A DNA stretch of 64,000 nucleotides from a virus (IMGVR_UViG_3300031344_000007:7083-71082), one strand, 5' to 3'. Shown: positions 1,971 through 15,792, counted from the first letter of the stretch. The notes: generated by a model from the sequence alone, not told the origin. Made by a program: numbers and translations.

Positions 1971-1981
1971 AAATTATAAAG

Positions 1982-2084: not shown

Positions 2085-2113
2085 AAAAAACCCGAAACTT
2101 TCGAATCGGGTTT
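2085..2113 (-). terminator. Attenuator terminator of tRNA operon 1
   Basis: AAACCCGA-TTCGAAAGTT-TCGGGTTTTTT. Its 5' arm CCCGATTC is complementary to GAATCGGG in the leader ORF. Confidence 0.85.
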
Positions 2114-2137
2114 ATGTTATTTATACTTTGTAATTTA

Positions 2138-2230
2138 TTAGCATTGTATTTTGAACACAGCATTCCCGATTCTCATAAGTTGTTTCTTATAAGATTTTTT
2201 ACCGTAATAATATGTTCCAAATGTAAACAT
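2138..2230 (-). CDS. Leader peptide 1 (MFTFGTYYYGKKSYKKQLMRIGNAVFKIQC)
   Basis: 30-codon ORF read from the sequence, between a TACATTTG promoter and the terminator. Tyr/Lys codon cluster. Confidence 0.8.
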   Translation of the reverse strand: MFTFGTYYYGKKSYKKQLMRIGNAVFKIQC

Positions 2231-2266
2231 TGCTTTATTTTTTATTTTAATTATTAATTTCTTTTG

Positions 2267-2274
2267 CAAATGTA
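2267..2274 (-). promoter_or_regulatory. Bacteroidota-type -7 promoter element TACATTTG
   Basis: Matches TAnnTTTG, 36 nt upstream of leader 1. Confidence 0.65.
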
Positions 2275-2341
2275 TATCATAAATACGAATAAAACAAATA
2301 AATGTTACAAAAAATTAAATTATTTTAAATTAATGTGTGAT

Positions 2342-3610
2342 TTATGAAATTTGTATTGCTTCTCTCATTATTTTAATTTCTTGTTGTTTAATATAATTAC
2401 CTAAATTAGAAGCAAATATCCAACCCGACCTTTCAAATGGAGTTTTACCACCGTTATAAATAAAATGAATTTTAAATTTTAGTTTTTTATTATCTTCTTC
2501 ATTTTCGTCATATTTAAATTCGGTGATATTAATTGTTTTATCTTGTTGTTTATATGTAGCAATTATTCCTTTCTTATTAACAGGTGTAAATTTATATTTA
2601 GAAATATATTCTTGTAATTCTGTATATCCTTTAACAAGTCCATAATAATCACTATCAGGGTCATCAAATCCATTAATAATATCAACTAATTTATCATCAA
2701 TTGCTTGATTAAGTTCAGTTAAATCCATATTATTATATGCCGTTTCATAAATATTTTCATAATTAATATCATTTTTCGTTCCCAAATTATCTAAAAATTG
2801 GTCAAAAGTTGAAATGTTTTTAAAATTATTTTTATATATAAAAGGTAATAATTTATCAATCATAAATTCAGTTTCATCATTATTAATTTTCAATGGAAAT
2901 GTTTCTAATTGTTCTTCTGCTGCAGTTATATTGGCATTGTCAAATGCTTCACCATATTCAGATAAATAAATTTCATTAATTATATTTAATTTATGCTCAT
3001 CTAAAAAATCTGAGAGATTACCTTCTTTCTGAAATCCAGATATTGTTTCATCATCTGCTCCCATCATTTTAGCAATTTCATTTATTTTTGACATATTATT
3101 ATTAGATAATGTACGTTGCATATATAATAACTTATCAGAATCTGCATATCCATTACCATAATATCCACCAGCAGTTGAGGTAACATTTTCGTAATTATCA
3201 CCTAAATTAAGTATGTTAATAACATTATCTTTATCTACTTTAATTGTAAAATAATCATTTTGAAAATAAATTCCTCTTCCATTTTCTTTATAAAAATTAC
3301 TATTTGTAATAAAATTTTCTAATTCTTTAAAATTATCGCCATGTTCATAATTTAGAAGTATTTTTAAAAATCCGGTACTTTCTTTATTATATGCATCCAG
3401 TATTGGTGTGATATATTGTTGAACTTTAGGATTTGTAGTATAAATTTCATAAACATCACCAATACTTAATTTACTAAAATCCATAATTTTATTTTCCAAT
3501 GCATATTTACTATATTCATACGGTAAATATTTATATCTTAGCTTATGGCTTGCAGCTATTGCCCTTTTACGATAATATGTGTCAATTAGTGACTTTTGTG
3601 CTTTATCCAT
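2342..3610 (-). CDS. Hypothetical protein
   Basis: 422-aa ORF, no recognised motif. Confidence 0.6.
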   Translation of the reverse strand: MDKAQKSLIDTYYRKRAIAASHKLRYKYLPYEYSKYALENKIMDFSKLSIGDVYEIYTTNPKVQQYITPILDAYNKESTGFLKILLNYEHGDNFKELENFITNSNFYKENGRGIYFQNDYFTIKVDKDNVINILNLGDNYENVTSTAGGYYGNGYADSDKLLYMQRTLSNNNMSKINEIAKMMGADDETISGFQKEGNLSDFLDEHKLNIINEIYLSEYGEAFDNANITAAEEQLETFPLKINNDETEFMIDKLLPFIYKNNFKNISTFDQFLDNLGTKNDINYENIYETAYNNMDLTELNQAIDDKLVDIINGFDDPDSDYYGLVKGYTELQEYISKYKFTPVNKKGIIATYKQQDKTINITEFKYDENEEDNKKLKFKIHFIYNGGKTPFERSGWIFASNLGNYIKQQEIKIMREAIQIS

Positions 3611-3619
3611 AAAAAAATA

Positions 3620-4669
3620 TTAAACCTCTTCATTTATTAATACATTAAATTGTTTTTCTGGTATTGGTTGTCCAGTATCAAGATATTGATGAAGTAAATG
3701 AAATCCACCCTTATCATTTTTATATTGCCATAAATATTCAAATTGTTCATCACCAAGTAATTGTCCACGTCCAATATATTTTGATTTTTCTTCAAATGTA
3801 AGTTTTTTGAACCAATCTAAATTATGATTTTTTGTACCCAAATTTGCTGTTTCTTTTTCTTCTTCAGGTGTTTTTGGTTTATTAACAAATAATTTATTTA
3901 TTGGAACACCTTTAGTTTTTAAATATCTTAAATAAGCATTAGTATTGTTTGCATATTTTGCAATATTACCAGTACTATTACTAGCATCAGTTAATTCAAT
4001 TCCTCTATCAGTAGCATCAACAACAACAATATGTAACGGATTACTTAAATCATAATTACCATCAATAACATAATAAAATGTACTTGTTTTAGTATCTCGA
4101 TAACTTTGCCACATGGTATTTGCTGGTTGCCCAATACAAAAACCATAATGTTGTCCTGTAAGTGCACCAGTAGTATAATGAATACATTTACCAACATCAT
4201 TACCATCATAAATTTTAATATTATTACCTTCCCATATTGGTGGTTCATTAGTATCTACATTAATTTTACCTTTCCATTGTTCATGACCTTTAGACATAAA
4301 TTCTAAACCATGAATAAATTCAGCAAACTTTAAATAATTTGAAAAAGTTTTATTATTGATGATATATCTTGTATCTGATATTTGTGGTGTGGTAATTTTA
4401 TTTGTATTAAGTAATTCAGATATTGTTGTAAATAAATGTAGCATATCATTTAATCCTCTATCACCAACTTCAAGATATGCTTTAGACATGATTGGAATAA
4501 GCACTTGATTTTTTGACCTATCAATACCTCGAAATTTAATTATTAAATTATTAATGTTATTATCTGCAATTCCACCTTTTTTTAATATAGCAATTGCTTG
4601 TTGTTCTGTTTGCTTAGATTCCGTTAAATAATTTTTAACTTCTTCTCGTATGATTTCAATTATATTCAT
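3620..4669 (-). CDS. Hypothetical (probably late/virion) protein
   Basis: 349-aa ORF preceded by GTATTTATA (4704-4712); N-terminal IIREEVKNYLTE motif. Confidence 0.6.
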   Translation of the reverse strand: MNIIEIIREEVKNYLTESKQTEQQAIAILKKGGIADNNINNLIIKFRGIDRSKNQVLIPIMSKAYLEVGDRGLNDMLHLFTTISELLNTNKITTPQISDTRYIINNKTFSNYLKFAEFIHGLEFMSKGHEQWKGKINVDTNEPPIWEGNNIKIYDGNDVGKCIHYTTGALTGQHYGFCIGQPANTMWQSYRDTKTSTFYYVIDGNYDLSNPLHIVVVDATDRGIELTDASNSTGNIAKYANNTNAYLRYLKTKGVPINKLFVNKPKTPEEEKETANLGTKNHNLDWFKKLTFEEKSKYIGRGQLLGDEQFEYLWQYKNDKGGFHLLHQYLDTGQPIPEKQFNVLINEEV

Positions 4670-4712
4670 GATTATATAATTAATCTATTTAATAACATTT
4701 TTTTATAAATAC

Positions 4713-4741
4713 AAAAAAAGCGAAGAAAATTCTTCGCTTTT
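4713..4741 (-). terminator. Rho-independent terminator
   Basis: AAAAGCGAAGAA-TT-TTCTTCGCTTTTTTT downstream of the RNA ligase. Confidence 0.75.
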
Positions 4742-4766
4742 AAATACTATGACAATATAAAATGAA

Positions 4767-5861
4767 TTAATTATTTTCCAAACTATTTTCTGTATTTCGA
4801 GAAAACGGTTTCGAAAATACTGGTCGTATTTGCTTCCATATAATATTATTATAATTTTTTTTATCATATAATTGAAATAATATTGAGCGATATTCTGATT
4901 TTATTGATTCCATAGCAAATGCTTTACGGTCAGTAATTCCATTAACATGGTAAATTCTTACAAATTCTTTTAATGATTTTCTTTCGATTTCATTGAAATT
5001 CAATTGTAATTCTTTAATTGTTTTATTCAACCAACCCAAAAATTCATCAGGAACTTTATCAAGTAAAGCATCAAAATCATAATTATTCATCAAATGTTCC
5101 CAAACAGTTAGATTTGAAACATTAGTTAAAATACCATGTAATCTAACATATTCTGCAAATTTAACTTTTACTCTGAATCCATCTTTGAATTTCACAACGA
5201 ATCCTTCTCGGTTTTCTTCTTCAAGTTTTTGTAAATCTTTAAGATTTTTAATATTATTTATATTGTATTTCTTAACGATTGTAAAATACTTTGAATAAGT
5301 AGATACAATATCGTCATAGCATATTTCATCACCAGTTTTTGTATTAATTATGGTAAGTAATACAAGTTCTCTTCTATCACCATAATCAACAACAATGCGG
5401 TTTTCAGGTGCTAAGTATTCTAAAACATACGTAAAATTCTTATTTAAATTATCATAAACAGAATTATTAATTAATTTTTTTGCCTCAATTGCTTGTTCAG
5501 AAATAAATGAACCTCTACTAGCTACAATCCACTCCATACGTGGAATATAATAAAAAATTTCTATATAACTACCATCAATTTTTTCCAATATCTCAAATTC
5601 TTGTGACATATCAATTTCTGAAGGGTCATGTTCTTCATAGTTCTTGAATTTTTTTATACACCTAGCTAAAATATTACCTTCTGCATCAATAACCAATCCT
5701 CTACAAGAACTGGTATATAAATCCCAAAATTTTTTGAATTGAACTTTAGGTGAATAATTTAATATCCAAATCTCATATTCTGGATGTTTATTTGCAATTA
5801 TGAGATTGTTGTCAACATAACTTTTTAATACATTCCAATCAATTTTTTCTAATATTTCCAT
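4767..5861 (-). CDS. T4 Rnl1 (RnlA)-like RNA ligase
   Basis: CRGLVID, KFKN, motif I EKIDGS, ASRGSF, ENRIVVDY, motif IV EGFVV, RVKVK. Confidence 0.88.
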   Translation of the reverse strand: MEILEKIDWNVLKSYVDNNLIIANKHPEYEIWILNYSPKVQFKKFWDLYTSSCRGLVIDAEGNILARCIKKFKNYEEHDPSEIDMSQEFEILEKIDGSYIEIFYYIPRMEWIVASRGSFISEQAIEAKKLINNSVYDNLNKNFTYVLEYLAPENRIVVDYGDRRELVLLTIINTKTGDEICYDDIVSTYSKYFTIVKKYNINNIKNLKDLQKLEEENREGFVVKFKDGFRVKVKFAEYVRLHGILTNVSNLTVWEHLMNNYDFDALLDKVPDEFLGWLNKTIKELQLNFNEIERKSLKEFVRIYHVNGITDRKAFAMESIKSEYRSILFQLYDKKNYNNIIWKQIRPVFSKPFSRNTENSLENN

Positions 5862-5862
5862 A

Positions 5863-6732
5863 TTAATTTCCTCTTTCTTTTGGATATTGAAAGATTTTGT
5901 TTCTTTCTATAAATATTTTTCTCAATTTTTTTGTTTCAGTATTATTCATACCTAATACATATGCATATTTATGTTTAGGTTTCATTTCTCTACTTTCACA
6001 AGATAATAAATATTCTTTTGAAAGTTTTCTTATTTGTAATGCAATTTCTTCTGGCATTTTATCAAACATTACACTATCACCATTTTGCCATTCGTCATGC
6101 CAAATGATTTCATTTTCTTTTGCAAGTCTTTTATAGACTGACCTCGCTCGAAAATATCTATCAGATACCCATCTTCCAGTTTCAATTTTATATTGATTTT
6201 TTGCACCAGATTTTTTACCTAAATAATAAAAATTACATGCTTGATAAATTGTACCTAATTCTTTTGCTTCAACATCTGAATAAGCAACAAATAAACGATA
6301 TTGTGTATTTTTTACCATCCAATTAATTGTAAACATAATTAAAGAACTTCCTAAATTTTTTGGTGACCAACTGATACAAGCACCTCTACTTATTAATCTT
6401 TCAATTTTTTTTGTATCTTCTCCTAATAATTTTGAAAATACACTTGGCATATCAATAATTACTACACCAGCCAAAATTCCTTTATATCTTGCTGTAAATA
6501 TGTGTGTTGGGTATAAACTTACTCTTTGCAACCATTCATGTCTTTCAATAAATTTTTTAATTTCATCAAAACATGTTTTCTTATCTTCATTCTGAAAAAC
6601 AAAATCACCAACTTTTAATTTTTTTGCTTCATCAATAGTTATATTCGCTTGCTTTAAATCATTGGTCAAATTATTTAACCTGATATCATATTGCCAACAA
6701 TGTTGTTGATTATAATTATTAATCATTTCCAA
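5863..6732 (-). CDS. Mom-like (GNAT-fold) DNA-modification acyltransferase
   Basis: LISRGAC..PKNLGSSLI, VAYSD...GTIYQACNFYYLG, typical of the Mu Mom family. Confidence 0.7.
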   Translation of the reverse strand: MEMINNYNQQHCWQYDIRLNNLTNDLKQANITIDEAKKLKVGDFVFQNEDKKTCFDEIKKFIERHEWLQRVSLYPTHIFTARYKGILAGVVIIDMPSVFSKLLGEDTKKIERLISRGACISWSPKNLGSSLIMFTINWMVKNTQYRLFVAYSDVEAKELGTIYQACNFYYLGKKSGAKNQYKIETGRWVSDRYFRARSVYKRLAKENEIIWHDEWQNGDSVMFDKMPEEIALQIRKLSKEYLLSCESREMKPKHKYAYVLGMNNTETKKLRKIFIERNKIFQYPKERGN

Positions 6733-7024
6733 TAATTTTAATTTTTTTTGCTAAAAACCATTTACCACCTTGATGTATTGGTCTATTAAATTCTGAATAT
6801 TCTTTCATTTCAACTTTAAGCCAAATTCTATTTTTATTACTTAAATGCGGTGCTTCTGGTTTTTCAGTACAATGCCAAAATGGTCGTACTTTATATCCTT
6901 TAGTCGGATAACAATTTGCTTCTAGCCATGCATTTCTTTTTAATTGTTCCGATTTATTAATAAAAAGTGATGTTATTTCACCAGATTTTAATTCTCTAAA
7001 TAATTTATACGCAATTTTTGACAT
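6719..7024 (-). CDS. Hypothetical protein
   Basis: 101-aa ORF (AYKLFR...WHC..KPEAPHL), TATATTTG promoter upstream. Confidence 0.6.
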   Translation of the reverse strand: MSKIAYKLFRELKSGEITSLFINKSEQLKRNAWLEANCYPTKGYKVRPFWHCTEKPEAPHLSNKNRIWLKVEMKEYSEFNRPIHQGGKWFLAKKIKIIGND

Positions 7025-7103
7025 AATGTTACAAATTTATTTGTTTTTAATATATGCAAATATATAAAAAAATTAAAGAATCACAGAGTATTTATATAAA
7101 ATT

Positions 7104-7550
7104 ATGTTTATGGGTGGTTTAAATATTAATAACTTCATTAAAAAAGAGGTGCAAAATTTTCTAAATGAAGCATCAGTTGTAAAAGATAATAGATTTCATT
7201 TCAATCAAAGATTAAATAATTCTTCATTTTCTAATTATGATACATTTACTTCAGAATTTGATGCAAATATTATTGAAAGTGACATTGTTATAACATGGAT
7301 AGTTTTATTTTGGTTAAATGATATGGGAATTGAAAATTTTGTAATAGAAGTGGAAAAAGCAGAAGGAACATTTACAATTGAAATGCGTGATAAACATAGT
7401 GATGAAATAAAACAAAATACACCAAAAAATATTAATGACTTTAATTGGAAATTTGTTATTGATGATGCTGTTTTACAAAAAAGCGGTTCGTTATATATTT
7501 CAGGATTAGAATTTGATTTTAAATCACAAATTTGTAAATTAAAATTTTAA
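7104..7550 (+). CDS. Hypothetical late protein
   Basis: 148-aa ORF, GTATTTATA at 7088; N-terminal FIKKEVQNFLNE motif. Confidence 0.6.
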   Translation: MFMGGLNINNFIKKEVQNFLNEASVVKDNRFHFNQRLNNSSFSNYDTFTSEFDANIIESDIVITWIVLFWLNDMGIENFVIEVEKAEGTFTIEMRDKHSDEIKQNTPKNINDFNWKFVIDDAVLQKSGSLYISGLEFDFKSQICKLKF

Positions 7551-7569
7551 ATAAAAAAATATAATTATT

Positions 7570-7821
7570 ATGAAAAAAATTTGGGAAGAAATTAAAGCAT
7601 GGTTCATTACAAAATGGACCGCATTAAAAGCATGGTTCATTGCAAAACCATTGGCTTGGATTAAAAAAAATTGGTTTATGATTGTCAATTACATAGTAAT
7701 AGTATTGGCATACAATAATATTTATGGTAAAACTAATGCCGAATTTGCTGAAGTTTTATTAGGACTTTGGATATTTACATCTGTTGCATATGCTGGATGG
7801 AAACTGTTTATAAAAAAATAA
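7570..7821 (+). CDS. Small membrane protein (two TM segments)
   Basis: Amphipathic Trp/Lys-rich N-terminus plus two hydrophobic stretches. Confidence 0.6.
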   Translation: MKKIWEEIKAWFITKWTALKAWFIAKPLAWIKKNWFMIVNYIVIVLAYNNIYGKTNAEFAEVLLGLWIFTSVAYAGWKLFIKK

Positions 7822-7865
7822 ACATGTTGGAATTCTAAATCTGTTATTGATAATGTTTTTATTCG

Positions 7866-7936
7866 TAGCGATAATAAGAATCGAACTTATATGTCCTCCT
7901 TATGAGAGAGTTATCCTACCATTGAATGATATCGCT
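7866..7936 (-). tRNA. tRNA with CAT anticodon (Met, or lysidine-Ile)
   Basis: Acceptor AGCGATA/TATCGCT, loop CT CAT AA, T arm ATAAG-TTCGATT-CTTAT. Confidence 0.82.
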
Positions 7937-7939
7937 ATA

Positions 7940-8269
7940 TTATGTTGAGAATTTAATCTCAACATAAGTTCTTTTGTGTCCAATTCTATGTTCTTCAACA
8001 ATTTTAATTGGTTTTCGCATCCATTGTTTTTTATTTTTAGAAACCAATTTCCAGTTTGGAAATCTTGTATTAGTTCCTTTTCTTTTACCATGACAAGTTT
8101 CCATATCATCGTAAATAATTCCGCCATACCATTTTTTATCATTGTTTTCATTTTGATGATAACCACAGTATGAACAATGAATTTTTCCTGTTTGTTCAAG
8201 ATGCAATTTATATGCACGATTGAATTCACCACGATTTGTGGTTGTTTTAACTAAATTTTTACTTCCCAT
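7940..8269 (-). CDS. Basic hypothetical protein with CxxCxxH
   Basis: 109-aa ORF, IHCSYCGYH, preceded by a uORF and hairpin. Confidence 0.65.
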   Translation of the reverse strand: MGSKNLVKTTTNRGEFNRAYKLHLEQTGKIHCSYCGYHQNENNDKKWYGGIIYDDMETCHGKRKGTNTRFPNWKLVSKNKKQWMRKPIKIVEEHRIGHKRTYVEIKFST

Positions 8270-8292
8270 TTTTCTTGTTACGCTTTAGTGCG

Positions 8293-8319
8293 TTACAAGA
8301 ATTCAAAATTTTTTTTCAT
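8293..8319 (-). CDS. Putative uORF MKKNFEFL
   Basis: Its stop codon lies in the 5' arm of hairpin TTCTTGTAACGC-ACTAAA-GCGTAACAAGAA, which abuts the next ATG. Confidence 0.45.
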   Translation of the reverse strand: MKKNFEFL

Positions 8320-8490
8320 AATTTTATATTTTTGAGATTATATCTTTATGTTCTTTTAATGACCATTCAATACTTTTAAATGTTAATTCCATTATTTCAG
8401 GATTAGCTAAATCAATTTCAGATTCATCAATTTCATCTTCATAATTTTTGAATCTTATTTTACTATTTTTTCTTAATCCAAAATTCATTG

Positions 8491-8997: not shown

Positions 8998-9080
8998 TTT
9001 CCTTGGTGGGAGTCGAACCCACACGCCCGAAGGCACTCGCTTTTGGGGAGAGCATGTGCTGCCAATTTCATCACAAGGAA
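8998..9080 (-). tRNA. tRNA-Leu(CAA), with C33 and an anticodon-stem mismatch
   Basis: Acceptor TTCCTTG/CAAGGAA, loop CC CAA AA, variable arm GCC-TTCG-GGC. Confidence 0.8.
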
Positions 9081-9081
9081 A

Positions 9082-9198: not shown

Positions 9199-9357
9199 AA
9201 TTTTAATATAAATACTTGGTTTGTTTATTTGTAGCTCTGACGGGATTTAAACTCTTACGAACTTTTGGTTCAAGTTGTTGTAATAATTTTTCTGCGTTCT
9301 TTCCAATTTGCCACAGTATTATATTTTCATATGAATACTGTGGAATTGGAAATTATG

Positions 9358-9719
9358 TGGTGGAGATGCGGGGCATCGATTCCCCGGTGTTGCAATGTGA
9401 TTAATAAGTTTTCTACAAGTTTATTTGATTTTCATAAATCAGCAAAATGTTAATTGTATTTTTCCAGAACAACTACAAAACTGTCCAGAACTTATTTTAC
9501 TTCCTTTCTGATTTGGGAAGTTTTTTGCTGTTTATTTTTTCCTGTTACGCAATTGAAAGTACGGCACTCTTTACAAATACGCTGTTTCCTTTTGTCAAGG
9601 AAGTAGGAATAGACATAATGTCTTCTGCATTTATTGTTTTGAACCTTTTTAAAGTAGTCCGATTCAACTACTACTTGCTTACATCATTTTTCTACATACA
9701 GTCAAATCCATTCATCCCC
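9358..9719 (-). ncRNA. ssrA: tmRNA
   Basis: 5' GGGGATGAATGGATTTGAC, 3' CATCTCCACCA, G3:U70 pair, resume context ATAAAT-GCA, tag ORF 9628-9545. Confidence 0.93.
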
Positions 9720-9761
9720 ATTATTTTAAAGAACTTTTATTCTAATAATAAATAGTTGTTA

Positions 9762-10487
9762 TTATTTTTTATTTTTCGGTTCTTTTCTAAAACTCCATTT
9801 ATAATCAAAACCGTGTTGTTCAATTTTATATTTATCAGCCACTTCAATAATTTCTTTTTCACCTCTACCAAGAACACCACCAATAAACATACTTATTTCC
9901 TGAAATGCTTGAAAACTATCAAATACTCTATAAAACAGATAATCACTTAAAATTGGATTAATAAAAAGTTTTTCATCACGTCTATAATAATGACCAACAC
10001 TTTTTCTATTATAATCACTATCATAAATAAAAATAGGTGCTTTAAAATCTCTAAATAATTGAAGAGCATCGTAATTTTTAATATAATTATAGTGTTCTTC
10101 AAGATTTCCATACCAACCTTTATTATCAATAATTGTTTTTATTAAATCAAAATCATATGTAATTGTAGTTATAAGTGTTTCTGGATAATCTTTTTTGTTT
10201 TCATAATATAATTTCCAACCAATATATAATTTTCCACAAAATCCAATAATAAAAGAACTACAATTTTGATAATTTTTATATTGTTCATTTTTTATTGTAT
10301 GATTTCCAATATTTAAAAAAGGCGAATCTTTACTTTTTTTAAAAGAAAATCCCTTTCTTTGAAATATTGATGGGAATTTTTTTTCTTCAACCTCAATTAT
10401 TTCACGGTCATAAACAAGTGTCTTATCAATACCCATAGTACCAACAACACCATCGTAAAAATCTTTTTTCTTCGAAATTATTAACAT
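9762..10487 (-). CDS. Conserved-looking phage hypothetical protein
   Basis: 241 aa; KDFYDG, IGFCGKLY, KIEQHGFD..WSFRK. Confidence 0.65.
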   Translation of the reverse strand: MLIISKKKDFYDGVVGTMGIDKTLVYDREIIEVEEKKFPSIFQRKGFSFKKSKDSPFLNIGNHTIKNEQYKNYQNCSSFIIGFCGKLYIGWKLYYENKKDYPETLITTITYDFDLIKTIIDNKGWYGNLEEHYNYIKNYDALQLFRDFKAPIFIYDSDYNRKSVGHYYRRDEKLFINPILSDYLFYRVFDSFQAFQEISMFIGGVLGRGEKEIIEVADKYKIEQHGFDYKWSFRKEPKNKK

Positions 10488-10556
10488 AATTTTACAAATT
10501 TAGTCTATTATATAAATATATGCAAATAAAAAATAAGTTTTATTTAGATATCAAAG

Positions 10557-10639
10557 CACACCGAGAACGATTCGAACGCTCAAAACCATTACTGGTCGCA
10601 CTTTTGGAGAGTGTTTGGCTTACCAATGCCTACCGATGT
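10557..10639 (-). tRNA. tRNA-Trp(CCA) with a long variable arm
   Basis: Acceptor ACATCGG/TCGGTGT, G73, loop CT CCA AA, variable arm ACCA-GTAA-TGGT. Confidence 0.82.
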
Positions 10640-10662
10640 GTATATTACTGAAATAATTTTTG

Positions 10663-10744
10663 TAGCTCTGGTCGGATTCGAACCGACACGCCCGAAGACA
10701 TTTGCTTTTAAGACAAACACGTCTACCAATTCCATCACAGAGCC
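10663..10744 (-). tRNA. tRNA-Leu(TAA)
   Basis: Anticodon arm TTTGT-CT TAA AA-GCAAA, class II variable arm, T arm GTCGG-TTCGAAT-CCGAC. Confidence 0.92.
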
Positions 10745-10750
10745 ATATTG

Positions 10751-10821
10751 TGGATACTTCGGGACTCGAACCCAATCTTCTGAGTGCAAAACAGACGTTC
10801 TTTCCTTTGAACTAAAGACCC
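10751..10821 (-). tRNA. tRNA-Ala(TGC)
   Basis: G3:U70, A73, loop TT TGC AC; some stem mismatches. Confidence 0.8.
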
Positions 10822-10883
10822 ATATTAAATTTCTATGCTTTCCATTACTTGGAACTATGAAATTTTTAACAGTCTTTCTACCG

Positions 10884-10957
10884 TGGAATCGAAGGGCATC
10901 GAACCCTCACTCTCCTGATTGCAGGTCAGGTGCTTTAGCCAGTTAAGCTACGACCCC
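10884..10957 (-). tRNA. tRNA-Ala(TGC), with C33
   Basis: Acceptor GGGGTCG/CGATTCC with G3:U70, anticodon arm CCTGA-CC TGC AA-TCAGG. Confidence 0.88.
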
Positions 10958-10970
10958 AATTATTATTTAG

Positions 10971-11049
10971 TAGCCAAGAAGAGACTCGAACTCTCACCAA
11001 TGATTATGCGTTCTAAGCGCACAGACTTTACCATTTTGTCCACTCGGCT
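10971..11049 (-). tRNA. tRNA-Leu(TAG)
   Basis: Anticodon arm GTGCG-CT TAG AA-CGCAT, T arm GAGAG-TTCGAGT-CTCTT. Confidence 0.88.
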
Positions 11050-11054
11050 AAATG

Positions 11055-11146
11055 TACCCTAAATCCGACTCGAACGGATATTTTAGTTTTCACTAAAAAA
11101 TTGCTTCTTAGACAATCGTGTCTCACTCCAGTTGCACCATTAGGGC
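11055..11146 (-). tRNA. tRNA-Leu(AAG)
   Basis: Acceptor GCCCTAA/TTAGGGT, anticodon arm ATTGT-CT AAG AA-GCAAT, long variable arm. Confidence 0.85.
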
Positions 11147-11251
11147 ATTTAATTATCGGTTGTAGAACAAATATCGCCTTTTTAACCGATAAATATTAAA
11201 TATCGGTAATTAAGGCGATATTATGATTGTATTTGGCACTACAATCTTTTG

Positions 11252-11326
11252 TATTCCCTGTAGGCTTCGAACCTACGACATCTTGCTTGTAGGGCAAGCA
11301 CTCTGACCCATCTGAGTTAAGGGAAT
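11252..11326 (-). tRNA. tRNA-Val(TAC), with C33
   Basis: Acceptor ATTCCCT/AGGGAAT, anticodon arm CTTGC-CC TAC AA-GCAAG. Confidence 0.9.
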
Positions 11327-11426
11327 ATATTTGTTAGTAAAAGCCAGCATTAAATCAAATTTTATATGATAATGTTAGTATTTCTGTAAGTTTTGACATT
11401 ATTTTAATGAATCTTATGTAAAATAA

Positions 11427-12392
11427 TTATTTCCAAACACTATTTCTATTATTACCTTTACCAGCACATTGTCTTGAGCAATATATATTTTTTGATTTAC
11501 ATTGCTTTCCACAGACTTTACAAAAATTAGTTAACTTATTATATGGATTATCATCATATAAATGAATATAATTTTTACCATATTTTTCAATTATATATGA
11601 AAAAATATGTTTTAGTTCGTTTTTTTTCATAACAATTAATGGTTTTTTAAAAGAATTATATTTTAAAATATCTTTTTTCCTTTCATATCCTTTTATTTCA
11701 TAATAAACATTGTCGATAATAAAATCAGGATAATATTTGTGTTTTATATTATCAATGTAATATTCGAATCCATTATTATTTCTTTCAAAAATAATTTTAT
11801 GGTCTATATTATAGATAACAAATGCTAATTCATAACTACTATCACACCAATATCCTTTATACCAACCAGATTTACCTCTACCAGAACCTTTTCTATAACC
11901 ACCCTTACTAACACCTCTATATTTACAATTTTTATCATTACAATAACATTTTTTTGAACAATATATTCTATTATTTCCAGATTCTCTCACCCAAAAATCA
12001 TTTTTACAAATAGGACAAGTTTTTAATATTCTTTTATTTAAATTTTTTTGTACCCACCTTTTATTTTTATCGTGTAACAAATAATTTTTTTTATTAATAA
12101 AACCTATTTTAAGTTTTGTTTCTTCACTATGTTTTCTAGTGTTTGCACAACTTCTTGAACAAAAATATTTTTCTTTTTTTGGAATATTAACGTTATATTC
12201 ACTAATTTCAAATTCGCTTTTACATGTAAAACATTTAACTTTAAAAATTTTCCATTTGTTTAAAACAGTTATTTTTTGTTTTTCAATACTTTCTAATGTA
12301 GGAATATATTTTGTAGGGTTGTGTTTATTTCTACATTTTGAATTACAATATTTATTTTTTACTTCTTTACCACAATTTAAACATTTATTCAT
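11427..12392 (-). CDS. Free-standing PD-(D/E)XK endonuclease with Cys-rich Zn fingers and a NUMOD3-like motif
   Basis: DSSYE...YYPDF...YEIKG; repeated CxxC..(Y/F)CSxxC; HSEETKLKI. Confidence 0.78.
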   Translation of the reverse strand: MNKCLNCGKEVKNKYCNSKCRNKHNPTKYIPTLESIEKQKITVLNKWKIFKVKCFTCKSEFEISEYNVNIPKKEKYFCSRSCANTRKHSEETKLKIGFINKKNYLLHDKNKRWVQKNLNKRILKTCPICKNDFWVRESGNNRIYCSKKCYCNDKNCKYRGVSKGGYRKGSGRGKSGWYKGYWCDSSYELAFVIYNIDHKIIFERNNNGFEYYIDNIKHKYYPDFIIDNVYYEIKGYERKKDILKYNSFKKPLIVMKKNELKHIFSYIIEKYGKNYIHLYDDNPYNKLTNFCKVCGKQCKSKNIYCSRQCAGKGNNRNSVWK

Positions 12393-12467
12393 ATATAATA
12401 TTTTATATAAATACTATATACTCTTAAAAAGAATCGAAATTGTTTAATTAGAATGATTTAAATTTTG

Positions 12468-12551
12468 TACTGCATGAGGAATTCGAATCCTGCGAAGCCT
12501 TTCGGCACTTGCTTGAGAGGCAAGTCGCTTTAACCACTTGCATAATGCAGC
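12468..12551 (-). tRNA. tRNA-Glu(CTC) with a long variable arm
   Basis: Acceptor GCTGCAT/ATGCAGT, A73, anticodon arm CTTGC-CT CTC AA-GCAAG, variable arm GCC-GAAA-GGC. Confidence 0.82.
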
Positions 12552-12630
12552 AAATTAATTATTTCGTTTTTCTATTATTAATTCATTCAATTTTAAAAAC
12601 AATATAACAAATAGTTATCTTAATTATCAA

Positions 12631-12683
12631 TGCTGAGAACGTAGAATGAGAATCTTTTGTCCTAACCATTAGACGAACCGAGC
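12631..12683 (-). pseudogene. Truncated conventional tRNA-Glu(CTC) remnant
   Basis: GCTCGGT TCGTCTAATGGTTAGGAC...AGA-TT CTC AT-TCT; T arm missing. Confidence 0.6.
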
Positions 12684-12687
12684 ATTT

Positions 12688-13083
12688 CTATTTAAATTGT
12701 TTTGGAAGTAAAAAATGCTTATATTGAAAATGAATTTTAGGTTTAAGTGATGTTTCAAAAAATTCTCCTTGTTCTTTCATATCTTCATCATCTTCTTCAT
12801 ATTTCCAAACAACTAAAATATTGGTAAGGGATTTTGCAACTTTTTGTAATATATTAAAAAGTGCTTTATTTGATGATGAATTAATATATTCAAATTCACA
12901 AGTAATTGTTAAATCAACATCTGAATGGTTTTTAATAAATTCATCTAATGCTTTATCAATATTATCAAAGAACATTAAGGAATTCTCAGGAAATGATTTT
13001 CCAGTTATTGTAAGAATACCTCTTTTAATATTAAAAAAAACTGCGGGTGTGTTGTTCGTTGCATTAATATACAAATTTTCCAT
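12688..13083 (-). CDS. SiaC-family (DUF1987) phosphoprotein
   Basis: ATNNTPAV, GKSFPEN, EYINSSSNK, WKYEEDDEDMKEQGE. Start set at MENLY because the upstream extension overlaps the tRNA. Confidence 0.8.
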   Translation of the reverse strand: MENLYINATNNTPAVFFNIKRGILTITGKSFPENSLMFFDNIDKALDEFIKNHSDVDLTITCEFEYINSSSNKALFNILQKVAKSLTNILVVWKYEEDDEDMKEQGEFFETSLKPKIHFQYKHFLLPKQFK

Positions 13084-13112
13084 AATTAAAATTAGTTTTA
13101 ATTTAACATTTG

Positions 13113-13196
13113 TACAGCGTGTGGGATTCGAACCCAGCGAAACCTTTCGGTACAAGATTGAAGGTCTTGCCACTTTAACCGCTTGTATAACGCTGC
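13113..13196 (-). tRNA. tRNA-Glu(TTC) with a long variable arm and C33
   Basis: Acceptor GCAGCGT/ACGCTGT, A73, anticodon arm CAAGA-CC TTC AA-TCTTG, variable arm ACC-GAAA-GGT. Confidence 0.82.
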
Positions 13197-13200
13197 ATAA

Positions 13201-13294
13201 AATATTAATGTCGCTCTTCCTTGCTGAGTCGTACACCTAATTCAGAATTTTCATCTGAGGTCACAAGAATCGAACTTGCGTCCACATTAATATT
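13201..13294 (-). ncRNA. Circularly permuted tRNA-mimic RNA (YrlA-like order: T arm, closed acceptor, D arm)
   Basis: Terminal 11-bp stem AATATTAATGT/ACATTAATATT encloses GCAAG-TTCGATT-CTTGT, a closed acceptor-like stem and CTC-AGCAAGGAA-GAG. Confidence 0.65.
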
Positions 13295-13298
13295 TTGC

Positions 13299-13369
13299 CG
13301 AGACTGAGAGATTCGAACTCTAACCCACTGCGTGACAGGCAGTTATACTAGCCATTATACTACAGCCTC
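13299..13369 (-). tRNA. tRNA-Asp(GTC)
   Basis: Anticodon arm ACTGC-CT GTC AC-GCAGT, G73, T stem apparently 4 bp. Confidence 0.88.
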
Positions 13370-13382
13370 GAAAATTTCCAAC

Positions 13383-13395
13383 ATGTCAAAGAACA
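13383..13395 (-). promoter_or_regulatory. boxA-like antitermination site TGTTCTTTGACAT
   Basis: Resembles rrn boxA (TGCTCTTTAACA); similar GTTCTTTRA at 9724-9735 and 15263-15274. Confidence 0.55.
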
Positions 13396-13432: not shown

Positions 13433-13473
13433 AAAAAAAAATCTCGACCATTTTTAAGTGGTCGAGATTTTTT
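13433..13473 (-). terminator. Attenuator terminator of tRNA operon 2
   Basis: AAAAAATCTCGACCA-CTTAAAAA-TGGTCGAGATTTTTTTTT; 5' arm complementary to TGGTCGAGA in the leader. Confidence 0.88.
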
Positions 13474-13490: not shown

Positions 13491-13586
13491 TTATCTTTCT
13501 CGACCAAATATAACAATATCTTCTGCATCTGCCCATAATAGGACAACTGCCATCTCTGATACTAATATGTCGAGTAATCTTTTCAT
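13491..13586 (-). CDS. Leader peptide 2 (MKRLLDILVSEMAVVLLWADAEDIVIFGRER)
   Basis: 31-codon ORF between a TATCTTTG promoter (13642-13649) and the terminator. Confidence 0.8.
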   Translation of the reverse strand: MKRLLDILVSEMAVVLLWADAEDIVIFGRER

Positions 13587-13678
13587 TATTTTTTAATTAT
13601 TAAATTTGTTTTACTAACTTCGTTTAATTCTAAATACGTTGCAAAGATATAAAATGTTACAATATATACAAACTTTTT

Positions 13679-14050: not shown

Positions 14051-14117
14051 AATTTTTAATTATTAATTTGCAAAGATAATAAAAAAATAGATTAAATTTT
14101 ATAAAAAATATAAATAG

Positions 14118-14188
14118 TTCCCTTATTAGGATTTGAACCTAAATATTCATTTTCAGAGAATGAAATGTTACCATTACATCATAAGGAA
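14118..14188 (-). tRNA. tRNA-Gln(CTG)
   Basis: U1:A72 acceptor TTCCTTA/TAAGGGA, anticodon arm TCATT-CT CTG AA-AATGA. Confidence 0.88.
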
Positions 14189-14194
14189 ATATTG

Positions 14195-14267
14195 TTGCCA
14201 TGTACAGATTCGAACTGTAACTAATTGATTCAAAGTCAATTGTGCTAATCCATTACACAACAAGGCA
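14195..14267 (-). tRNA. tRNA-Gln(TTG)
   Basis: Anticodon arm ATTGA-CT TTG AA-TCAAT, T arm TACAG-TTCGAAT-CTGTA. Confidence 0.9.
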
Positions 14268-14273
14268 ATATTG

Positions 14274-14345
14274 GGGGTGATGAGGTATTTGAAACCTCCC
14301 CGACAGAATCACAATCTGGCATGCTACCGCTACACCAATCATCCC
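14274..14345 (-). tRNA. tRNA-His(GTG)
   Basis: Encoded G-1 and C73, loop TT GTG AT. Confidence 0.88.
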
Positions 14346-14352
14346 ATATAAA

Positions 14353-15201
14353 TTATATATTATTATAATATTCTAAAAATTTATTTATTTCATTCTTTAT
14401 ATATTGTTTACCATTTTCAGTATTAATATTTTTCCATTTTATTCTATAAACAACGTATCCATTATCATTTAATATTTTATCTCTAATTACATCATGTTCT
14501 TTTCTATAATTATGTTGTTTACCATCAATTTCTAAATCAATATTTTTATCTTCAATATAAAAATCTAAAAAATAATTACATGAATCGGTTAAGCCTAAAT
14601 TTCTTTTATTTACTGGATAATTATGTTTATAACCAATATTATTATTTTTTAGTACATTAATAAAAAACCGTTCAGGATAACTAATAATATTTCTTGCTGT
14701 CCAACCTTTATGAATACCATTTGCAATTCTTTTATTTATAAAATCTTTAGTATTATTACTTTTTAATTTTAAATGGCATTCTTTTGAACAACATTTAGAT
14801 TTACTTGGTTTTCCACTTAAACATTTTTGAGAAATAAATTCATTTTTACATATTACACATATTTTTTTAGTTTCACGATTAACTTTATTATTAATAAATC
14901 TATTGTTTAATAATGAATCACTTATTTTATTTTTTGTTTCGTTACTTAATTTTCTTTTTTTATTATTAAATGTTGCAGCACATGAACTATTACAAAATTT
15001 GTTTCTACTATTTATTTTTTTATTACAATTTAAACAATATTTTATTTTTTTATTAAAATGTGATACATTAATATCATTTTCTAATATAAATTCGTTTAAT
15101 TCTTCATATACTCTAGCATTTGAAAATCCAAAATATTTTAATAATATTTCATTTTTAGATTTAGATGTTTCAATAATCTCAATTAATTTTTTTTCACACA
15201 C
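14353..15201 (-). CDS. Free-standing DUF559/Vsr-like endonuclease with Zn-finger and NUMOD3-like motifs
   Basis: YFLDF...LEIDGKQH...HDVIRDKIL...GYVVYRIKW. Confidence 0.78.
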   Translation of the reverse strand: MCEKKLIEIIETSKSKNEILLKYFGFSNARVYEELNEFILENDINVSHFNKKIKYCLNCNKKINSRNKFCNSSCAATFNNKKRKLSNETKNKISDSLLNNRFINNKVNRETKKICVICKNEFISQKCLSGKPSKSKCCSKECHLKLKSNNTKDFINKRIANGIHKGWTARNIISYPERFFINVLKNNNIGYKHNYPVNKRNLGLTDSCNYFLDFYIEDKNIDLEIDGKQHNYRKEHDVIRDKILNDNGYVVYRIKWKNINTENGKQYIKNEINKFLEYYNNI

Positions 15202-15345
15202 AATATTTAAATTTATTATAAATACTGTGGATGTCGAAAAAATACGAGTTGAACTATAGGTATTTCAAAGAACTTTGCTAAATTTTTAGTTAACCTTTTG
15301 GTTATGCAGTGATTACTACGTGCAAGTAATTTAACATCAATCACT

Positions 15346-15430
15346 TCGGGGTGACACGGTTCGAACGTGCGAGGGATTTCTCCACCTGCTTCCAAGGCAG
15401 GACTGCTACCAACTACAGACCTACACCCCG
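15346..15430 (-). tRNA. tRNA-Pro(TGG) with a long variable arm
   Basis: Acceptor CGGGGTG/CACCCCG, A73, anticodon arm CCTGC-CT TGG AA-GCAGG, variable arm GGA-GAAA-TCC. Confidence 0.85.
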
Positions 15431-15441
15431 ATATATATAAT

Positions 15442-15470
15442 AAAAAACCCCATTCGTTTGAATGGGGTCT
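15442..15470 (-). terminator. Attenuator terminator of tRNA operon 3
   Basis: AGACCCCATTC-AAAC-GAATGGGGTTTTTT; 5' arm complementary to TGAATGGGG in the leader. Confidence 0.88.
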
Positions 15471-15499
15471 ACTAATTGCTCTCTCACTTCTTAAAAAAC

Positions 15500-15568
15500 T
15501 TAAGCATAGTTTCCCCATTCAGTCACCTGTGGATGTTGTTGGGGGTTAATATGCATTAAATTTTTCAT
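15500..15568 (-). CDS. Leader peptide 3 (MKNLMHINPQQHPQVTEWGNYA)
   Basis: 22-codon ORF between a TATATTTG promoter (15606-15613) and the terminator; PQQHPQ run. Confidence 0.85.
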   Translation of the reverse strand: MKNLMHINPQQHPQVTEWGNYA

Positions 15569-15792
15569 AACTAAAATTTTATAACTATGTTTAACAAAAT
15601 CATTGCAAATATATGCATTAAAATTATAAATACAAGCATTTTTTAAAAAAATTTTTATTAATAAGAAAAAATGTGTGAATCATGTAACATATTATCGGAA
15701 ATGTGTAACCTTTTTTAAATACCCTAAATGTATTTATTAGTGTTAGATAGCCACATTTTTCAATAAAAATTTAACACCAATAAAATAAATCA

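What the first reader, a model, noticed from the sequence alone, without database searches (positions are those of the whole stretch)
2085..15613. Codon-matched leader-peptide attenuators in front of all three phage tRNA operons
Seen: each tRNA operon starts with the same layout: TAnnTTTG promoter, 22-31-codon ORF, intrinsic terminator, first tRNA. In all three, a segment late in the leader is an exact 8-9-nt complement of the terminator's 5' arm, and can alternatively pair with an upstream segment at or near the control codons (1:2, 2:3, 3:4). The three elements share no obvious sequence, yet each leader is enriched in codons read by its own operon's tRNAs. Established: this is the trp/his-type ribosome-mediated attenuation layout, known for amino-acid biosynthesis and synthetase operons. 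Inference: the phage senses loss of specific functional tRNAs (starvation or host anticodon nucleases) through ribosome stalling and switches on the matching tRNA set. I know of no description of attenuation controlling tRNA genes themselves, but cannot search the literature here.
Basis: partly seen in the sequence, partly recalled or inferred. Interest (0 to 1): 0.96.

Follow-up and report, generated by a model that had tools for sequence, protein, structure and literature searches.

The report
Leader-peptide attenuators gating phage tRNA operons
Each block of tRNA genes in this phage sits behind a tiny test gene, written in the codons that block's tRNAs read and wired to a switchable transcription stop, so the phage probably makes a tRNA set only when ribosomes decode its codons slowly.

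Summary
All three units are real: a promoter-like motif, a 22-31-codon ORF, an intrinsic terminator, then the first tRNA. A late leader segment is an exact 9-, 9- or 8-nt complement of the terminator's 5' arm.

A fourth unit lies on the same contig just outside the window. Its leader composition predicted the tRNAs missing beyond the contig end, and near-identical relatives carry them.

Leaders are enriched about 2-4-fold in residues of their own operon's tRNAs. 30 of 33 anticodons have a cognate codon in their own leader, against 17.0 +/- 2.3 by simulation. Enrichment sits in the codons where a stalled ribosome would leave the antiterminator free.

In relatives and in cultured Cellulophaga phage phi4:1, tRNA groupings differ and the leaders change with them. 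The own operon was the best match in 24 of 24 and 3 of 3 cases.

No transcript or translation data exist. Eight literature searches found no account of leader-peptide attenuation of tRNA genes. This scan has already reported the same device on other phage genomes.

Verdict: a new variant of ribosome-mediated attenuation, in silico only, confidence about 0.7.

The parts
15606..15613 (-). Promoter-like Bacteroidota -7 motif of unit 3
   Evidence: Motif position; sequence read. The motif alone is not enriched in the window.
15500..15568 (-). Leader ORF 3, 22 codons plus stop. Codons 9-14 are all Pro, Gln or His, and there is one more His at codon 6.
   Evidence: In-set residues 7/21 against an expected 0.08, p=9e-4.
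15513..15521 (-). Region 2 of unit 3, the antiterminator arm: exact 9-nt complement of 15467-15459. It also pairs with the C-run at 15545-15541 in the control codons (region 1).
   Evidence: The 2:3 duplex is -13.4 kcal/mol.
15445..15470 (-). Terminator/attenuator hairpin of unit 3, followed by a T-run, 13 nt before tRNA-Pro
   Evidence: (dG -16.1).
14117..15431 (-). Operon 3: tRNA-Pro(tgg), an inserted DUF559/NUMOD3 endonuclease ORF (15201-14353), then tRNA-His(gtg), Gln(ttg) and Gln(ctg)
   Evidence: Relatives lack the ORF between Pro and His.
13642..13649 (-). Promoter-like motif of unit 2. The promoter region is nearly identical to that of the fourth unit.
13491..13586 (-). Leader ORF 2, 31 codons plus stop. 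18 of codons 2-23 are Asp, Glu, Val, Leu, Ala, Trp or Met.
   Evidence: In-set residues 20/30 against an expected 0.32, p=1e-4.
13498..13506 (-). Region 2 of unit 2: exact 9-nt complement of 13467-13459
   Evidence: The 2:3 duplex is -15.2 kcal/mol against -16.3 for the terminator.
13439..13470 (-). Terminator/attenuator hairpin of unit 2, followed by a T-run
   Evidence: dG -17.5.
13376..13394 (-). Conserved box between the terminator and tRNA-Asp, of unknown role. It could be a weak second promoter or a processing signal.
   Evidence: Present in 11 of 28 units, 4-9 nt before the first tRNA in most.
4717..13370 (-). Predicted transcription unit 2. It holds tRNA Asp, Glu, Glu, Val, Leu, Leu, Ala, Ala, Leu, Trp, then a tmRNA (9719-9358), then tRNA-Leu(caa) and tRNA-Met, protein genes including a T4 Rnl1-type RNA ligase (5861-4767), and the next terminator at 4740-4717.
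   Evidence: No minus-strand terminator was called between 13439 and 4740.
2267..2274 (-). Promoter-like motif of unit 1
2138..2230 (-). Leader ORF 1, 30 codons plus stop. 8 of the 10 codons 7-16 are Tyr or Lys.
   Evidence: In-set residues 9/29 against an expected 0.14, p=0.017. 6 in-set codons in the best 8-codon window, reached by 3 of 506 small ORFs.
2165..2172 (-). Region 2 of unit 1: exact 8-nt complement of 2110-2103. It also sits in a long imperfect hairpin with the control codons (region 1).
   Evidence: The 2:3 duplex is -13.0 kcal/mol against -11.6 for the terminator.
2088..2113 (-). Terminator/attenuator hairpin of unit 1, followed by a T-run, 21 nt before tRNA-Tyr
1109..2066 (-). 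Operon 1: tRNA-Tyr(gta), Lys(ttt), a 217-aa ORF, Lys(ctt), and the closing terminator at 1136-1109

Best explanation
Each unit is a ribosome-mediated (leader-peptide) transcription attenuator placed in front of a phage tRNA operon.

Proposed mechanism:
1. Transcription starts at a Bacteroidota-type promoter, and a ribosome translates the short leader.
2. If codons read by the operon's own tRNA species are decoded slowly, the ribosome stalls in the first two thirds of the leader. Region 2, late in the leader, stays free and pairs with the 5' arm of the terminator (2:3). RNA polymerase then reads through into the tRNA genes.
3. If decoding is fast, the ribosome runs onto region 2. The terminator (3:4) forms and transcription stops 10-70 nt before the first tRNA.

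Each tRNA block is therefore under negative feedback from the decoding speed of its own codons. Block 2 would also carry a tmRNA and an Rnl1-type RNA ligase under the same switch.

Shown here: the sequence anatomy, its statistics and its co-variation across phages. Inferred: leader translation, termination, read-through and the physiological trigger.
For: 1. Anatomy. Three units lie in the window and a fourth on the contig, all with the same order of parts.

2. Antiterminator.
- Exact 9-, 9-, 8- and 8-nt complements to the terminator 5' arm.
- Complements of 7 nt or more occur at 18/30 tRNA-proximal terminators against 4/111 others.
- Own 2:3 duplexes average -12.1 kcal/mol against -8.3 for cross pairs; 0 of 20000 permutations reached that.
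- Relatives with a different terminator stem carry the matching change in region 2: L007 and L010 against the window type.

3. Codon match.
- Binomial p values of 9e-4, 1e-4 and 0.017, and 5e-9 for unit 4 using the tRNA set of the near-identical relative.
- 30 of 33 anticodons are represented in their own leader, against 17.0 +/- 2.3 (maximum 26) in 20000 simulated leaders.
- Among 506 small ORFs of the contig, 10 to 24 reach each leader's matched fraction.

4. Prediction met. The fourth leader is rich in Thr, Asn, Arg, Gly and Phe, whose tRNAs are absent from the contig. Relatives L054/L055 and G005 show Thr, Thr, Cys, Ile, Ser, Ser, Phe, Gly, Met, Asn, Thr, Arg after the same leader.

5. Position. 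With a 30-nt ribosome mask on transcripts ending before region 4, the terminator arm is sequestered when the A site is on the enriched codons and freed when it is on later codons. In-set residues number 257/375 in that window against 69/210 downstream, over 20 units.

6. Co-variation.
- The own operon is the best match in 24 of 24 leaders from records with two or more units.
- In G001, tRNA-Trp sits in the Asn-type block. That leader has a Trp codon and the Asp-type leader has none.
- G003 groups Leu, His, Ser and Trp, and its leader has 11/20 such residues against an expected 0.18.
- Cultured Cellulophaga phage phi4:1 has three units with yet other groupings. The own operon is best in 3 of 3, and the terminators lie 9 nt from the first tRNA.

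7. Reading frame.
- Pairwise differences at codon positions 1/2/3 are 221/221/404 for the Pro type and 386/387/527 for the Asp type.
- 301 of 581 replacements in the Asp type, and 46 of 64 in the Cys type, swap one in-set residue for another.

8. Geometry. The stop codon lies 20-37 nt before the terminator in 28 of 28 units.
Against: - No expression data. The only RNA run holding related sequence is kept as contigs and shows no ends.
- On full-length transcripts at equilibrium the terminator wins at every ribosome position for units 2 and 3. The switch therefore has to be kinetic, as in trp.
- Units 2 and 4 fold into the antiterminator even without a ribosome (0.75 and 0.68). An untranslated leader would then read through, unlike trp.
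- In unit 1 a ribosome at the stop codon leaves region 2 free (0.65-0.67).
- A conserved box after the terminator in 11 of 28 units could be a second promoter that bypasses the switch.
- Some relatives have weak 2:3 pairing: G001 Lys/Tyr -5.4, G003 second unit -7.1, L004 Asp -8.7 kcal/mol.
- Enrichment for unit 1 is modest (p=0.017), and its first sense codons (Phe, Thr, Gly) are out of set.
- G005's Asp-type block has no called tRNA-Ala although its leader has Ala codons. The L003 and L004 leaders have Trp codons but no tRNA-Trp within the fetched stretch.
- Many of the 28 units are homologous, so pooled p values overstate independence.
- The promoter motif is not statistically distinctive.
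Confidence: 0.7

Rival explanations
1. The units are attenuators, but they report general translation stress or amino-acid starvation rather than the supply of particular tRNAs. The tRNA blocks would then simply be part of a translation-stress regulon.
For: Stalling at a codon cannot tell missing amino acid from missing tRNA. Block 2 also carries a tmRNA and an RNA ligase. The Anabaena tRNA array is induced by general translational stress (PMC8421152, passages read; PMC10272220, abstract read).
Against: A general sensor would not need a separate leader per block, each spelling that block's own tRNA set down to isoacceptors: 30 of 33 anticodons. It would also not need to follow tRNAs that move between blocks. 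Making more uncharged tRNA does not relieve starvation.
Confidence: 0.15
2. The small ORFs are independent genes for short peptides, some of them hydrophobic, each with its own terminator. The tRNAs are made from separate promoters downstream, and the terminator is not regulated.
For: The Asp-type leaders are hydrophobic and conserved at the peptide level. A conserved box resembling a weak promoter follows the terminator in 11 of 28 units. One such ORF is annotated as a hypothetical protein in phi4:1.
Against: - In 11 of 28 units, and in all three phi4:1 units, only 9-22 nt separate the terminator from the first tRNA, which leaves no room for a promoter.
- Peptide function does not explain why composition mirrors the downstream tRNAs in unrelated leader families.
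- It does not explain why replacements keep the set but not the residue.
- It does not explain why the ORF carries a copy of the terminator's 3' arm.
Confidence: 0.07
3. Chance: short ORFs and hairpins are common in AT-rich DNA, and the reader picked matching ones after seeing the tRNAs.
For: The promoter motif is frequent. ORFs of 22-30 codons are not rare at 27% G+C. Single-unit p values are modest: the leaders are matched or beaten by 10-24 of 506 small ORFs.
Against: A rule-based pipeline that never looks at composition recovers the same ORFs. The joint statistics, the fulfilled prediction for the fourth unit and the recurrence in phi4:1 are not compatible with chance. crAss001 gives no such units under the same inspection.
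Confidence: 0.02

Closest known systems
Multivalent leader-peptide attenuators of enterobacterial amino-acid operons (thr leader sensing Thr and Ile; ilvGMEDA leader sensing Ile, Val, Leu), with trp and his as the single-amino-acid type. These names are recalled from textbook knowledge, not taken from a call.
   Same: A short translated leader with control codons, an intrinsic terminator, a mutually exclusive antiterminator overlapping its 5' arm, and (in units 3 and 1) a 1:2 hairpin over the control codons. Several amino acids are sensed by one leader.
   Different: The regulated genes are tRNAs, not enzymes, so the signal acts on the decoder itself. Up to 9-17 amino acids are sampled in one leader. 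The host is a Bacteroidota-type organism and the carrier is a phage. There is no sequence relation to Rfam leader families. Units 2 and 4 seem to default to read-through when untranslated.
pheST (phenylalanyl-tRNA synthetase) attenuator and T-box riboswitches: attenuation of translation-apparatus genes. Recalled, not taken from a call.
   Same: Transcription attenuation tied to the state of a specific tRNA or amino acid, controlling a component of the decoding machinery.
   Different: pheST controls a synthetase and senses one amino acid. T-boxes bind uncharged tRNA directly, without a ribosome or ORF. No T-box or other Rfam element was found in window 1-16500 at E up to 0.1.
The long tRNA array (trn operon) of Anabaena sp. 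PCC 7120, induced under translational stress (PMC8421152; PMC10272220)
   Same: An accessory tRNA array that is kept low and switched on when translation is impaired. An RNA ligase gene (rtcB) is co-regulated there; here an Rnl1-type ligase lies in the block.
   Different: Control there is by the repressor TrcR at direct repeats in the promoter. The words 'attenuat', 'leader' and 'terminator' do not occur in PMC8421152. There is no leader ORF and no codon specificity.
Drug-sensing leader peptides (erm, cat, msrD and similar)
   Same: A ribosome stalled on a short leader remodels downstream RNA structure.
   Different: Stalling there is caused by an antibiotic and the nascent peptide, not by codon supply. 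The targets are resistance genes, and several act on translation rather than termination. These papers were seen only in search listings.

Membership tests
Ribosome-mediated (leader-peptide) transcription attenuators, trp/his type | Short ORF between the promoter and the first regulated gene | tested here: met
   ORFs of 22, 31, 30 and 42 codons, starting 36-55 nt after the promoter-like motif.
Ribosome-mediated (leader-peptide) transcription attenuators, trp/his type | Control codons cognate to what the operon supplies | tested here: met
   30 of 33 anticodons are represented, and enrichment is 2-4-fold. The supply here is tRNA, not amino acid.
Ribosome-mediated (leader-peptide) transcription attenuators, trp/his type | Intrinsic terminator between the leader ORF and the first gene | tested here: met
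   Hairpins of -11.8 to -17.5 kcal/mol, each with a T-run, 13-68 nt before the first tRNA.
Ribosome-mediated (leader-peptide) transcription attenuators, trp/his type | Antiterminator (2:3) mutually exclusive with the terminator | tested here: met
   Exact 8-9-nt complements. Duplexes of -13.0 to -16.9 kcal/mol. Specific to the unit's own terminator.
Ribosome-mediated (leader-peptide) transcription attenuators, trp/his type | Anti-antiterminator or pause hairpin (1:2) covering the control codons | tested here: inconclusive
   Clear in units 3 and 1: arm sequestration is 0.16 and 0.29 without a ribosome. Weak in units 2 and 4: 0.75 and 0.68.
Ribosome-mediated (leader-peptide) transcription attenuators, trp/his type | The leader is translated, and stalling raises read-through | not testable with these tools
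   Only indirect support: third-position excess and set-preserving replacements. The RNA contigs were uninformative.
Rfam leader families (His, Trp, Thr, Leu leaders and others) and T-box | Match to the family covariance model | tested here: not met
   cmscan of window 1-16500 at E up to 0.1 found 17 tRNAs, one tmRNA and one weak sRNA hit below its cut-off. No leader or T-box family was hit.

The most novel reading that the evidence does not exclude
The leaders are per-block decoding-speed gauges that work as an inducible counter-defence. When host anticodon nucleases or host shut-off remove the tRNAs of one set, ribosomes stall on that set's leader. The phage then switches on exactly the replacement tRNAs and, with block 2, a tmRNA and an Rnl1-type tRNA-repair ligase. 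The blocks start with Tyr/Lys, Asp/Glu and Pro/His/Gln. By recall, these are the tRNAs most often hit by known anticodon nucleases. This device would be widespread in phages of Bacteroidota.
Probability: 0.25. Interest if true: 0.95.

Novelty: new variant of a known kind. Interest (0 to 1): 0.85.

Why it matters
If true, tRNA genes join amino-acid and synthetase operons as targets of leader-peptide attenuation. The ribosome is then used to measure the supply of the decoder itself, codon set by codon set.

It would explain how large phages with dozens of tRNAs dose them during infection. It would give a direct read-out of which host tRNAs are limiting or attacked. It would offer compact, codon-specific sensors for synthetic biology.

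The same layout occurs in a cultured pair, Cellulophaga phage phi4:1 on C. baltica, so the idea can be tested at the bench now.

Tried and rejected
- Full-length equilibrium folding with a ribosome mask. The terminator stays formed at all positions for units 2 and 3. This is uninformative about a kinetic switch, so I replaced it with transcripts truncated before region 4.
- Alignment A1 of nine Pro-type leaders. The two terminator types misalign, so I made no column-wise pair count and did not use the count of structure pairs. I used own-versus-cross duplex energies instead.
- The 'longest ORF' rule picked an ORF running across the promoter for unit 3, and a protein C-terminus in L004. I replaced it with complement-based rules and a promoter-anchored rule.
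- One search used motif coordinates that were off by one base, so its output was discarded.
- The promoter-anchored rule misses G003 and the Pro-type unit of G002. For these I used the pairs.
- Four units with a complement under 6 nt were left out of the window-versus-rest count.
- G005 was dropped as near-identical to the window, except for its fourth unit.
- Sequencing runs. One peat metatranscriptome run held 0.14 of the sampled words, and two runs of unknown kind held 0.29-0.32. All are contigs, so there are no starts, ends or strand. This is no evidence either way, for expression or for habitat.
- crAss001, MH675552.1. None of the 8 gaps of 110 nt or more before its tRNAs showed a terminator-like hairpin or a leader. 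The device is not universal in Bacteroidota phages.
- More distant cREC-bearing loci L024, L025 and L027-L030. I saw no unit by eye, and part of that output was cut.
- The promoter motif is not enriched.
- Pairing of the post-terminator box with the 5' end of the transcript, seen in the fold, is not kept in L001 on my reading. I dropped it.
- ended with script errors after printing. I used only what one search printed.
- Supplementary files of papers were not opened.

Full report
**What is there**

The window is most of a 71,082-bp virus contig of 27% G+C. It has a T4-type terminase and a prohead protease, and weak DNA similarity to Prevotella Lak megaphages.

All 19 tRNA genes called in the window are on the minus strand, within the first 15.5 kb. 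Only six minus-strand intrinsic terminators are called in window 1-16500. Three of them sit directly between a short promoter-proximal ORF and a tRNA gene.

The three units, in window coordinates:
- Unit 3: motif 15613-15606, ORF 15568-15500, terminator 15470-15445, tRNA-Pro at 15431.
- Unit 2: motif 13649-13642, ORF 13586-13491, terminator 13470-13439, tRNA-Asp at 13370.
- Unit 1: motif 2274-2267, ORF 2230-2138, terminator 2113-2088, tRNA-Tyr at 2066.

In each unit a segment late in the ORF is an exact reverse complement of the terminator's 5' arm, of 9, 9 and 8 nt.

**A fourth unit and a fulfilled prediction**

The 7 kb of contig before the window hold three more tRNAs: Cys, Ile and Ser. Upstream of them lies a fourth unit. 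It has:
- a promoter region nearly identical to that of unit 2;
- a 42-codon ORF;
- a terminator whose 5' arm is matched by an exact 8-nt complement late in the ORF.

This leader is rich in Ser, Ile and Cys, but also in Thr, Asn, Arg, Gly and Phe. Those last five are exactly the amino acids whose tRNAs are missing from the contig. Near-identical relatives that extend further (L054, L055, record G005) show Thr, Thr, Cys, Ile, Ser, Ser, Phe, Gly, Met, Asn, Thr, Arg after the same leader.

With that set, 37 of 41 leader residues are in-set against an expected fraction of 0.47 (p=5e-9).

**Is the pairing more than chance?**

- I applied one detector to 11 records and 9 control loci. A complement of 7 nt or more to the terminator 5' arm lies within 110 nt upstream of 18 of 30 terminators that precede a tRNA, and of 4 of 111 other terminators. 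One of those four is probably a displaced unit in L003.
- The best duplex between each leader's distal part and its own terminator arm averages -12.1 kcal/mol, against -8.3 for leaders paired with other units' arms. None of 20000 permutations reached the observed mean.
- For the window's units the 2:3 duplexes are -13.4, -15.2, -13.0 and -16.9 kcal/mol. The terminators are -16.0, -16.3, -11.6 and -13.9. The two states are comparable.
- Pro-type leaders of L007 and L010 have a different terminator stem, and region 2 changes in step.

**Is the codon match more than chance?**

- Backgrounds come from the long ORFs of each record. In-set residues are 7/21 against 0.08 for unit 3, 20/30 against 0.32 for unit 2, and 9/29 against 0.14 for unit 1. 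The p values are 9e-4, 1e-4 and 0.017.
- At codon level, with strict wobble rules, each leader matches its own set about twice the background. Only 10-24 of 506 small ORFs of the contig reach each leader's matched fraction.
- 30 of 33 distinct anticodons have at least one cognate codon in their own leader, including both Gln, both Lys, both Glu and all three Thr species. Simulated leaders drawn from the phage's own codon usage cover 17.0 +/- 2.3, with a maximum of 26 in 20000.

**Does position fit the mechanism?**

I folded each leader transcript truncated before the terminator's 3' arm, with a 30-nt ribosome footprint held unpaired at every A-site codon. The values are the probability that the terminator 5' arm is sequestered.

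| Unit | No ribosome | Ribosome on early codons | Ribosome on later codons |
|---|---|---|---|
| 3 | 0.16 | 0.77 (codons 1-12) | 0.04-0.08 (codons 14-19) |
| 1 | 0.29 | 0.72-0.81 (codons 1-15) | 0.02-0.18 (codons 17-27), then 0.65-0.67 near the stop |
| 2 | 0.75 | about 0.75 (up to codon 22) | falls to 0.27 at the stop |
| 4 | 0.68 | 0.68 (up to codon 31) | falls to 0.03-0.41 |

The enriched codons lie in the zone where a stall would favour read-through. Over 20 units with a complement of 6 nt or more, in-set residues number 257/375 in that zone and 69/210 after it.

At equilibrium on full-length RNA the terminator always wins for units 2 and 3. The switch must therefore be kinetic, as in the classical cases.

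**Related phages**

A search with the neighbouring cREC-domain protein, plus a promoter pattern, gave 57 loci. Whole-record tRNA maps of five large records added more.

A rule-based pipeline that never looks at composition finds 25 units in 11 records. Three more come from the complement-based rule.

- In all 28, the stop codon lies 20-37 nt before the terminator.
- In records with two or more units, the leader matches its own operon better than any other operon of that record in 24 of 24 cases.
- Where tRNAs are grouped differently, the leaders differ accordingly:
  - In G001, tRNA-Trp lies in the Asn-type block. That leader has a Trp codon, while the Asp-type leader has none and its block has no tRNA-Trp. 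The same block has three tRNA-Met, and its leader has two internal Met codons.
  - G003 has one block of Leu, His, Ser and Trp with a matching leader (11/20 against 0.18). A second block covers 17 amino acids, and its 38-codon leader contains 16 of them.

**A cultured phage and a negative control**

Cellulophaga phage phi4:1 (NC_021788.1) belongs to another lineage. It has three units with yet other groupings:
- Pro, Glu, Gln, His, Leu, Arg;
- Ala, Lys, Ile, Gly, Met, Asp, Thr, Val, Arg;
- Tyr, Ser, Asn, Trp, Phe.

In-set counts are 11/21, 28/38 and 14/31. The own operon is best in 3 of 3. The terminators lie 9 nt from the first tRNA, and the 2:3 duplexes are -11.8 to -14.6 kcal/mol. One of these ORFs is annotated only as a hypothetical protein.

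Bacteroides phage crAss001 shows no such unit under the same inspection.

**Is the frame read?**

- Between relatives, differences at codon positions 1/2/3 are 221/221/404 for the Pro type and 386/387/527 for the Asp type.
- Of the amino-acid replacements, 301 of 581 (Asp type) and 46 of 64 (Cys type) exchange one in-set residue for another.
- Composition is kept while sequence drifts. This fits a codon sampler better than a peptide with a function of its own.

**Mechanism and its weak points**

The best reading is ribosome-mediated attenuation giving each tRNA block negative feedback from the decoding speed of its own codons.

Weak points:
- There are no expression data.
- Units 2 and 4 appear to default to read-through when untranslated.
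- In unit 1, a ribosome at the stop codon leaves region 2 free.
- A conserved box lies between terminator and first tRNA in 11 of 28 units, at 13394-13376 in the window. It could be a second promoter.
- Several relatives have weak 2:3 pairing.
- A few leader residues have no called tRNA in the fetched stretch.
- Homologous units are not independent.

The trigger is open. A T4 Rnl1-type RNA ligase (4767-5861), a cREC-domain protein (13679-14050) and a tmRNA (9358-9719) lie in or beside block 2. No terminator is called between the unit 2 attenuator and 4740. That fits a response to tRNA damage or ribosome stalling, but it is only context.

**Known or new**

- Rfam holds no match for the leaders.
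- Eight full-text searches found no paper on leader-peptide attenuation of tRNA genes. For these I saw listings and abstract starts only.
- I read passages of PMC8421152, the abstract and outline of PMC10272220, and passages of PMC3082878 and PMC2965389.
- The nearest case in print is the Anabaena tRNA array, induced under translational stress through the repressor TrcR. It has no leader or attenuator.
- Subscription-only papers are not covered.
- This scan has already reported the same device on other phage genomes. I did not re-test those windows.

I class this as a new variant of a known kind: the classical attenuator logic, applied to the decoder genes themselves and sampling many amino acids at once.

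Noticed in passing
window 9358-9719 (-): A phage-encoded tmRNA: Rfam RF00023, 68.4 bits, E 4e-25. ARAGORN did not call it. It lies inside predicted transcription unit 2, downstream of tRNA-Trp.
   Followed up: partly
window 12467-12551, 13112-13196, 15345-15431, 10556-10639; contig C1 482-570: tRNA-Glu (two genes, 85 nt each), tRNA-Pro (87 nt), tRNA-Trp (84 nt) and tRNA-Cys (89 nt) are drawn by ARAGORN with long, class-II-like variable arms. That is unusual for these identities.
   Followed up: no
window 4767-5861 (-), 13679-14050 (-), 12688-13236 (-): A T4 Rnl1-type RNA ligase (Pfam RNA_lig_T4_1, E 3e-19), a cyclic-phosphate-processing receiver domain protein (cREC_REC, E 3e-23) and a SiaC-family protein are interleaved with the tRNA genes.
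   Followed up: partly
window 13376-13394 (-); also contig C1 about 575-595 (-): A conserved box of about 19 nt lies just before the first tRNA of the Asp-type and Cys-type blocks, in 11 of 28 units across relatives. Its role is unknown: possibly a weak second promoter or a processing signal.
   Followed up: partly
window 14353-15201 (-): A DUF559/NUMOD3 endonuclease-like ORF sits between tRNA-Pro and tRNA-His. Close relatives such as L011 have Pro and His about 120 nt apart without it, so it looks like a mobile insertion inside the operon.
   Followed up: partly
window about 12640-12685 (-): A stretch that reads like the 5' half of a tRNA (D arm and anticodon arm) lies upstream of tRNA-Glu(ctc). 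Neither ARAGORN nor Rfam calls it.
   Followed up: no
window 45707-47611 (+) and 55362-57932 (-): Intein-splicing domains lie inside a prohead protease gene and inside a UvrD-type helicase gene. The helicase one also carries a LAGLIDADG endonuclease domain.
   Followed up: no
relatives: end of the Cys/Thr-type blocks in G004 (L065), G005 (L069), G001 (L058): A tRNA with anticodon cta, which reads TAG, closes the last tRNA block. This hints at TAG recoding in this phage group. The four leaders of this contig all end with TAA.
   Followed up: no
L066 about 14890-15195 (-) (record G004): About 316 nt lie between the Pro-type attenuator and the first called tRNA-Pro. The stretch is G+C-rich and may hold an uncalled structured RNA or an interrupted tRNA.
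   Followed up: no
window 2227-2213 (-): The first five sense codons of leader 1 (Phe, Thr, Phe, Gly, Thr) match no tRNA of operon 1. They do match tRNAs of the next block downstream, the fourth unit. The relative G004 keeps Thr, Phe and Gly there.
   Followed up: no
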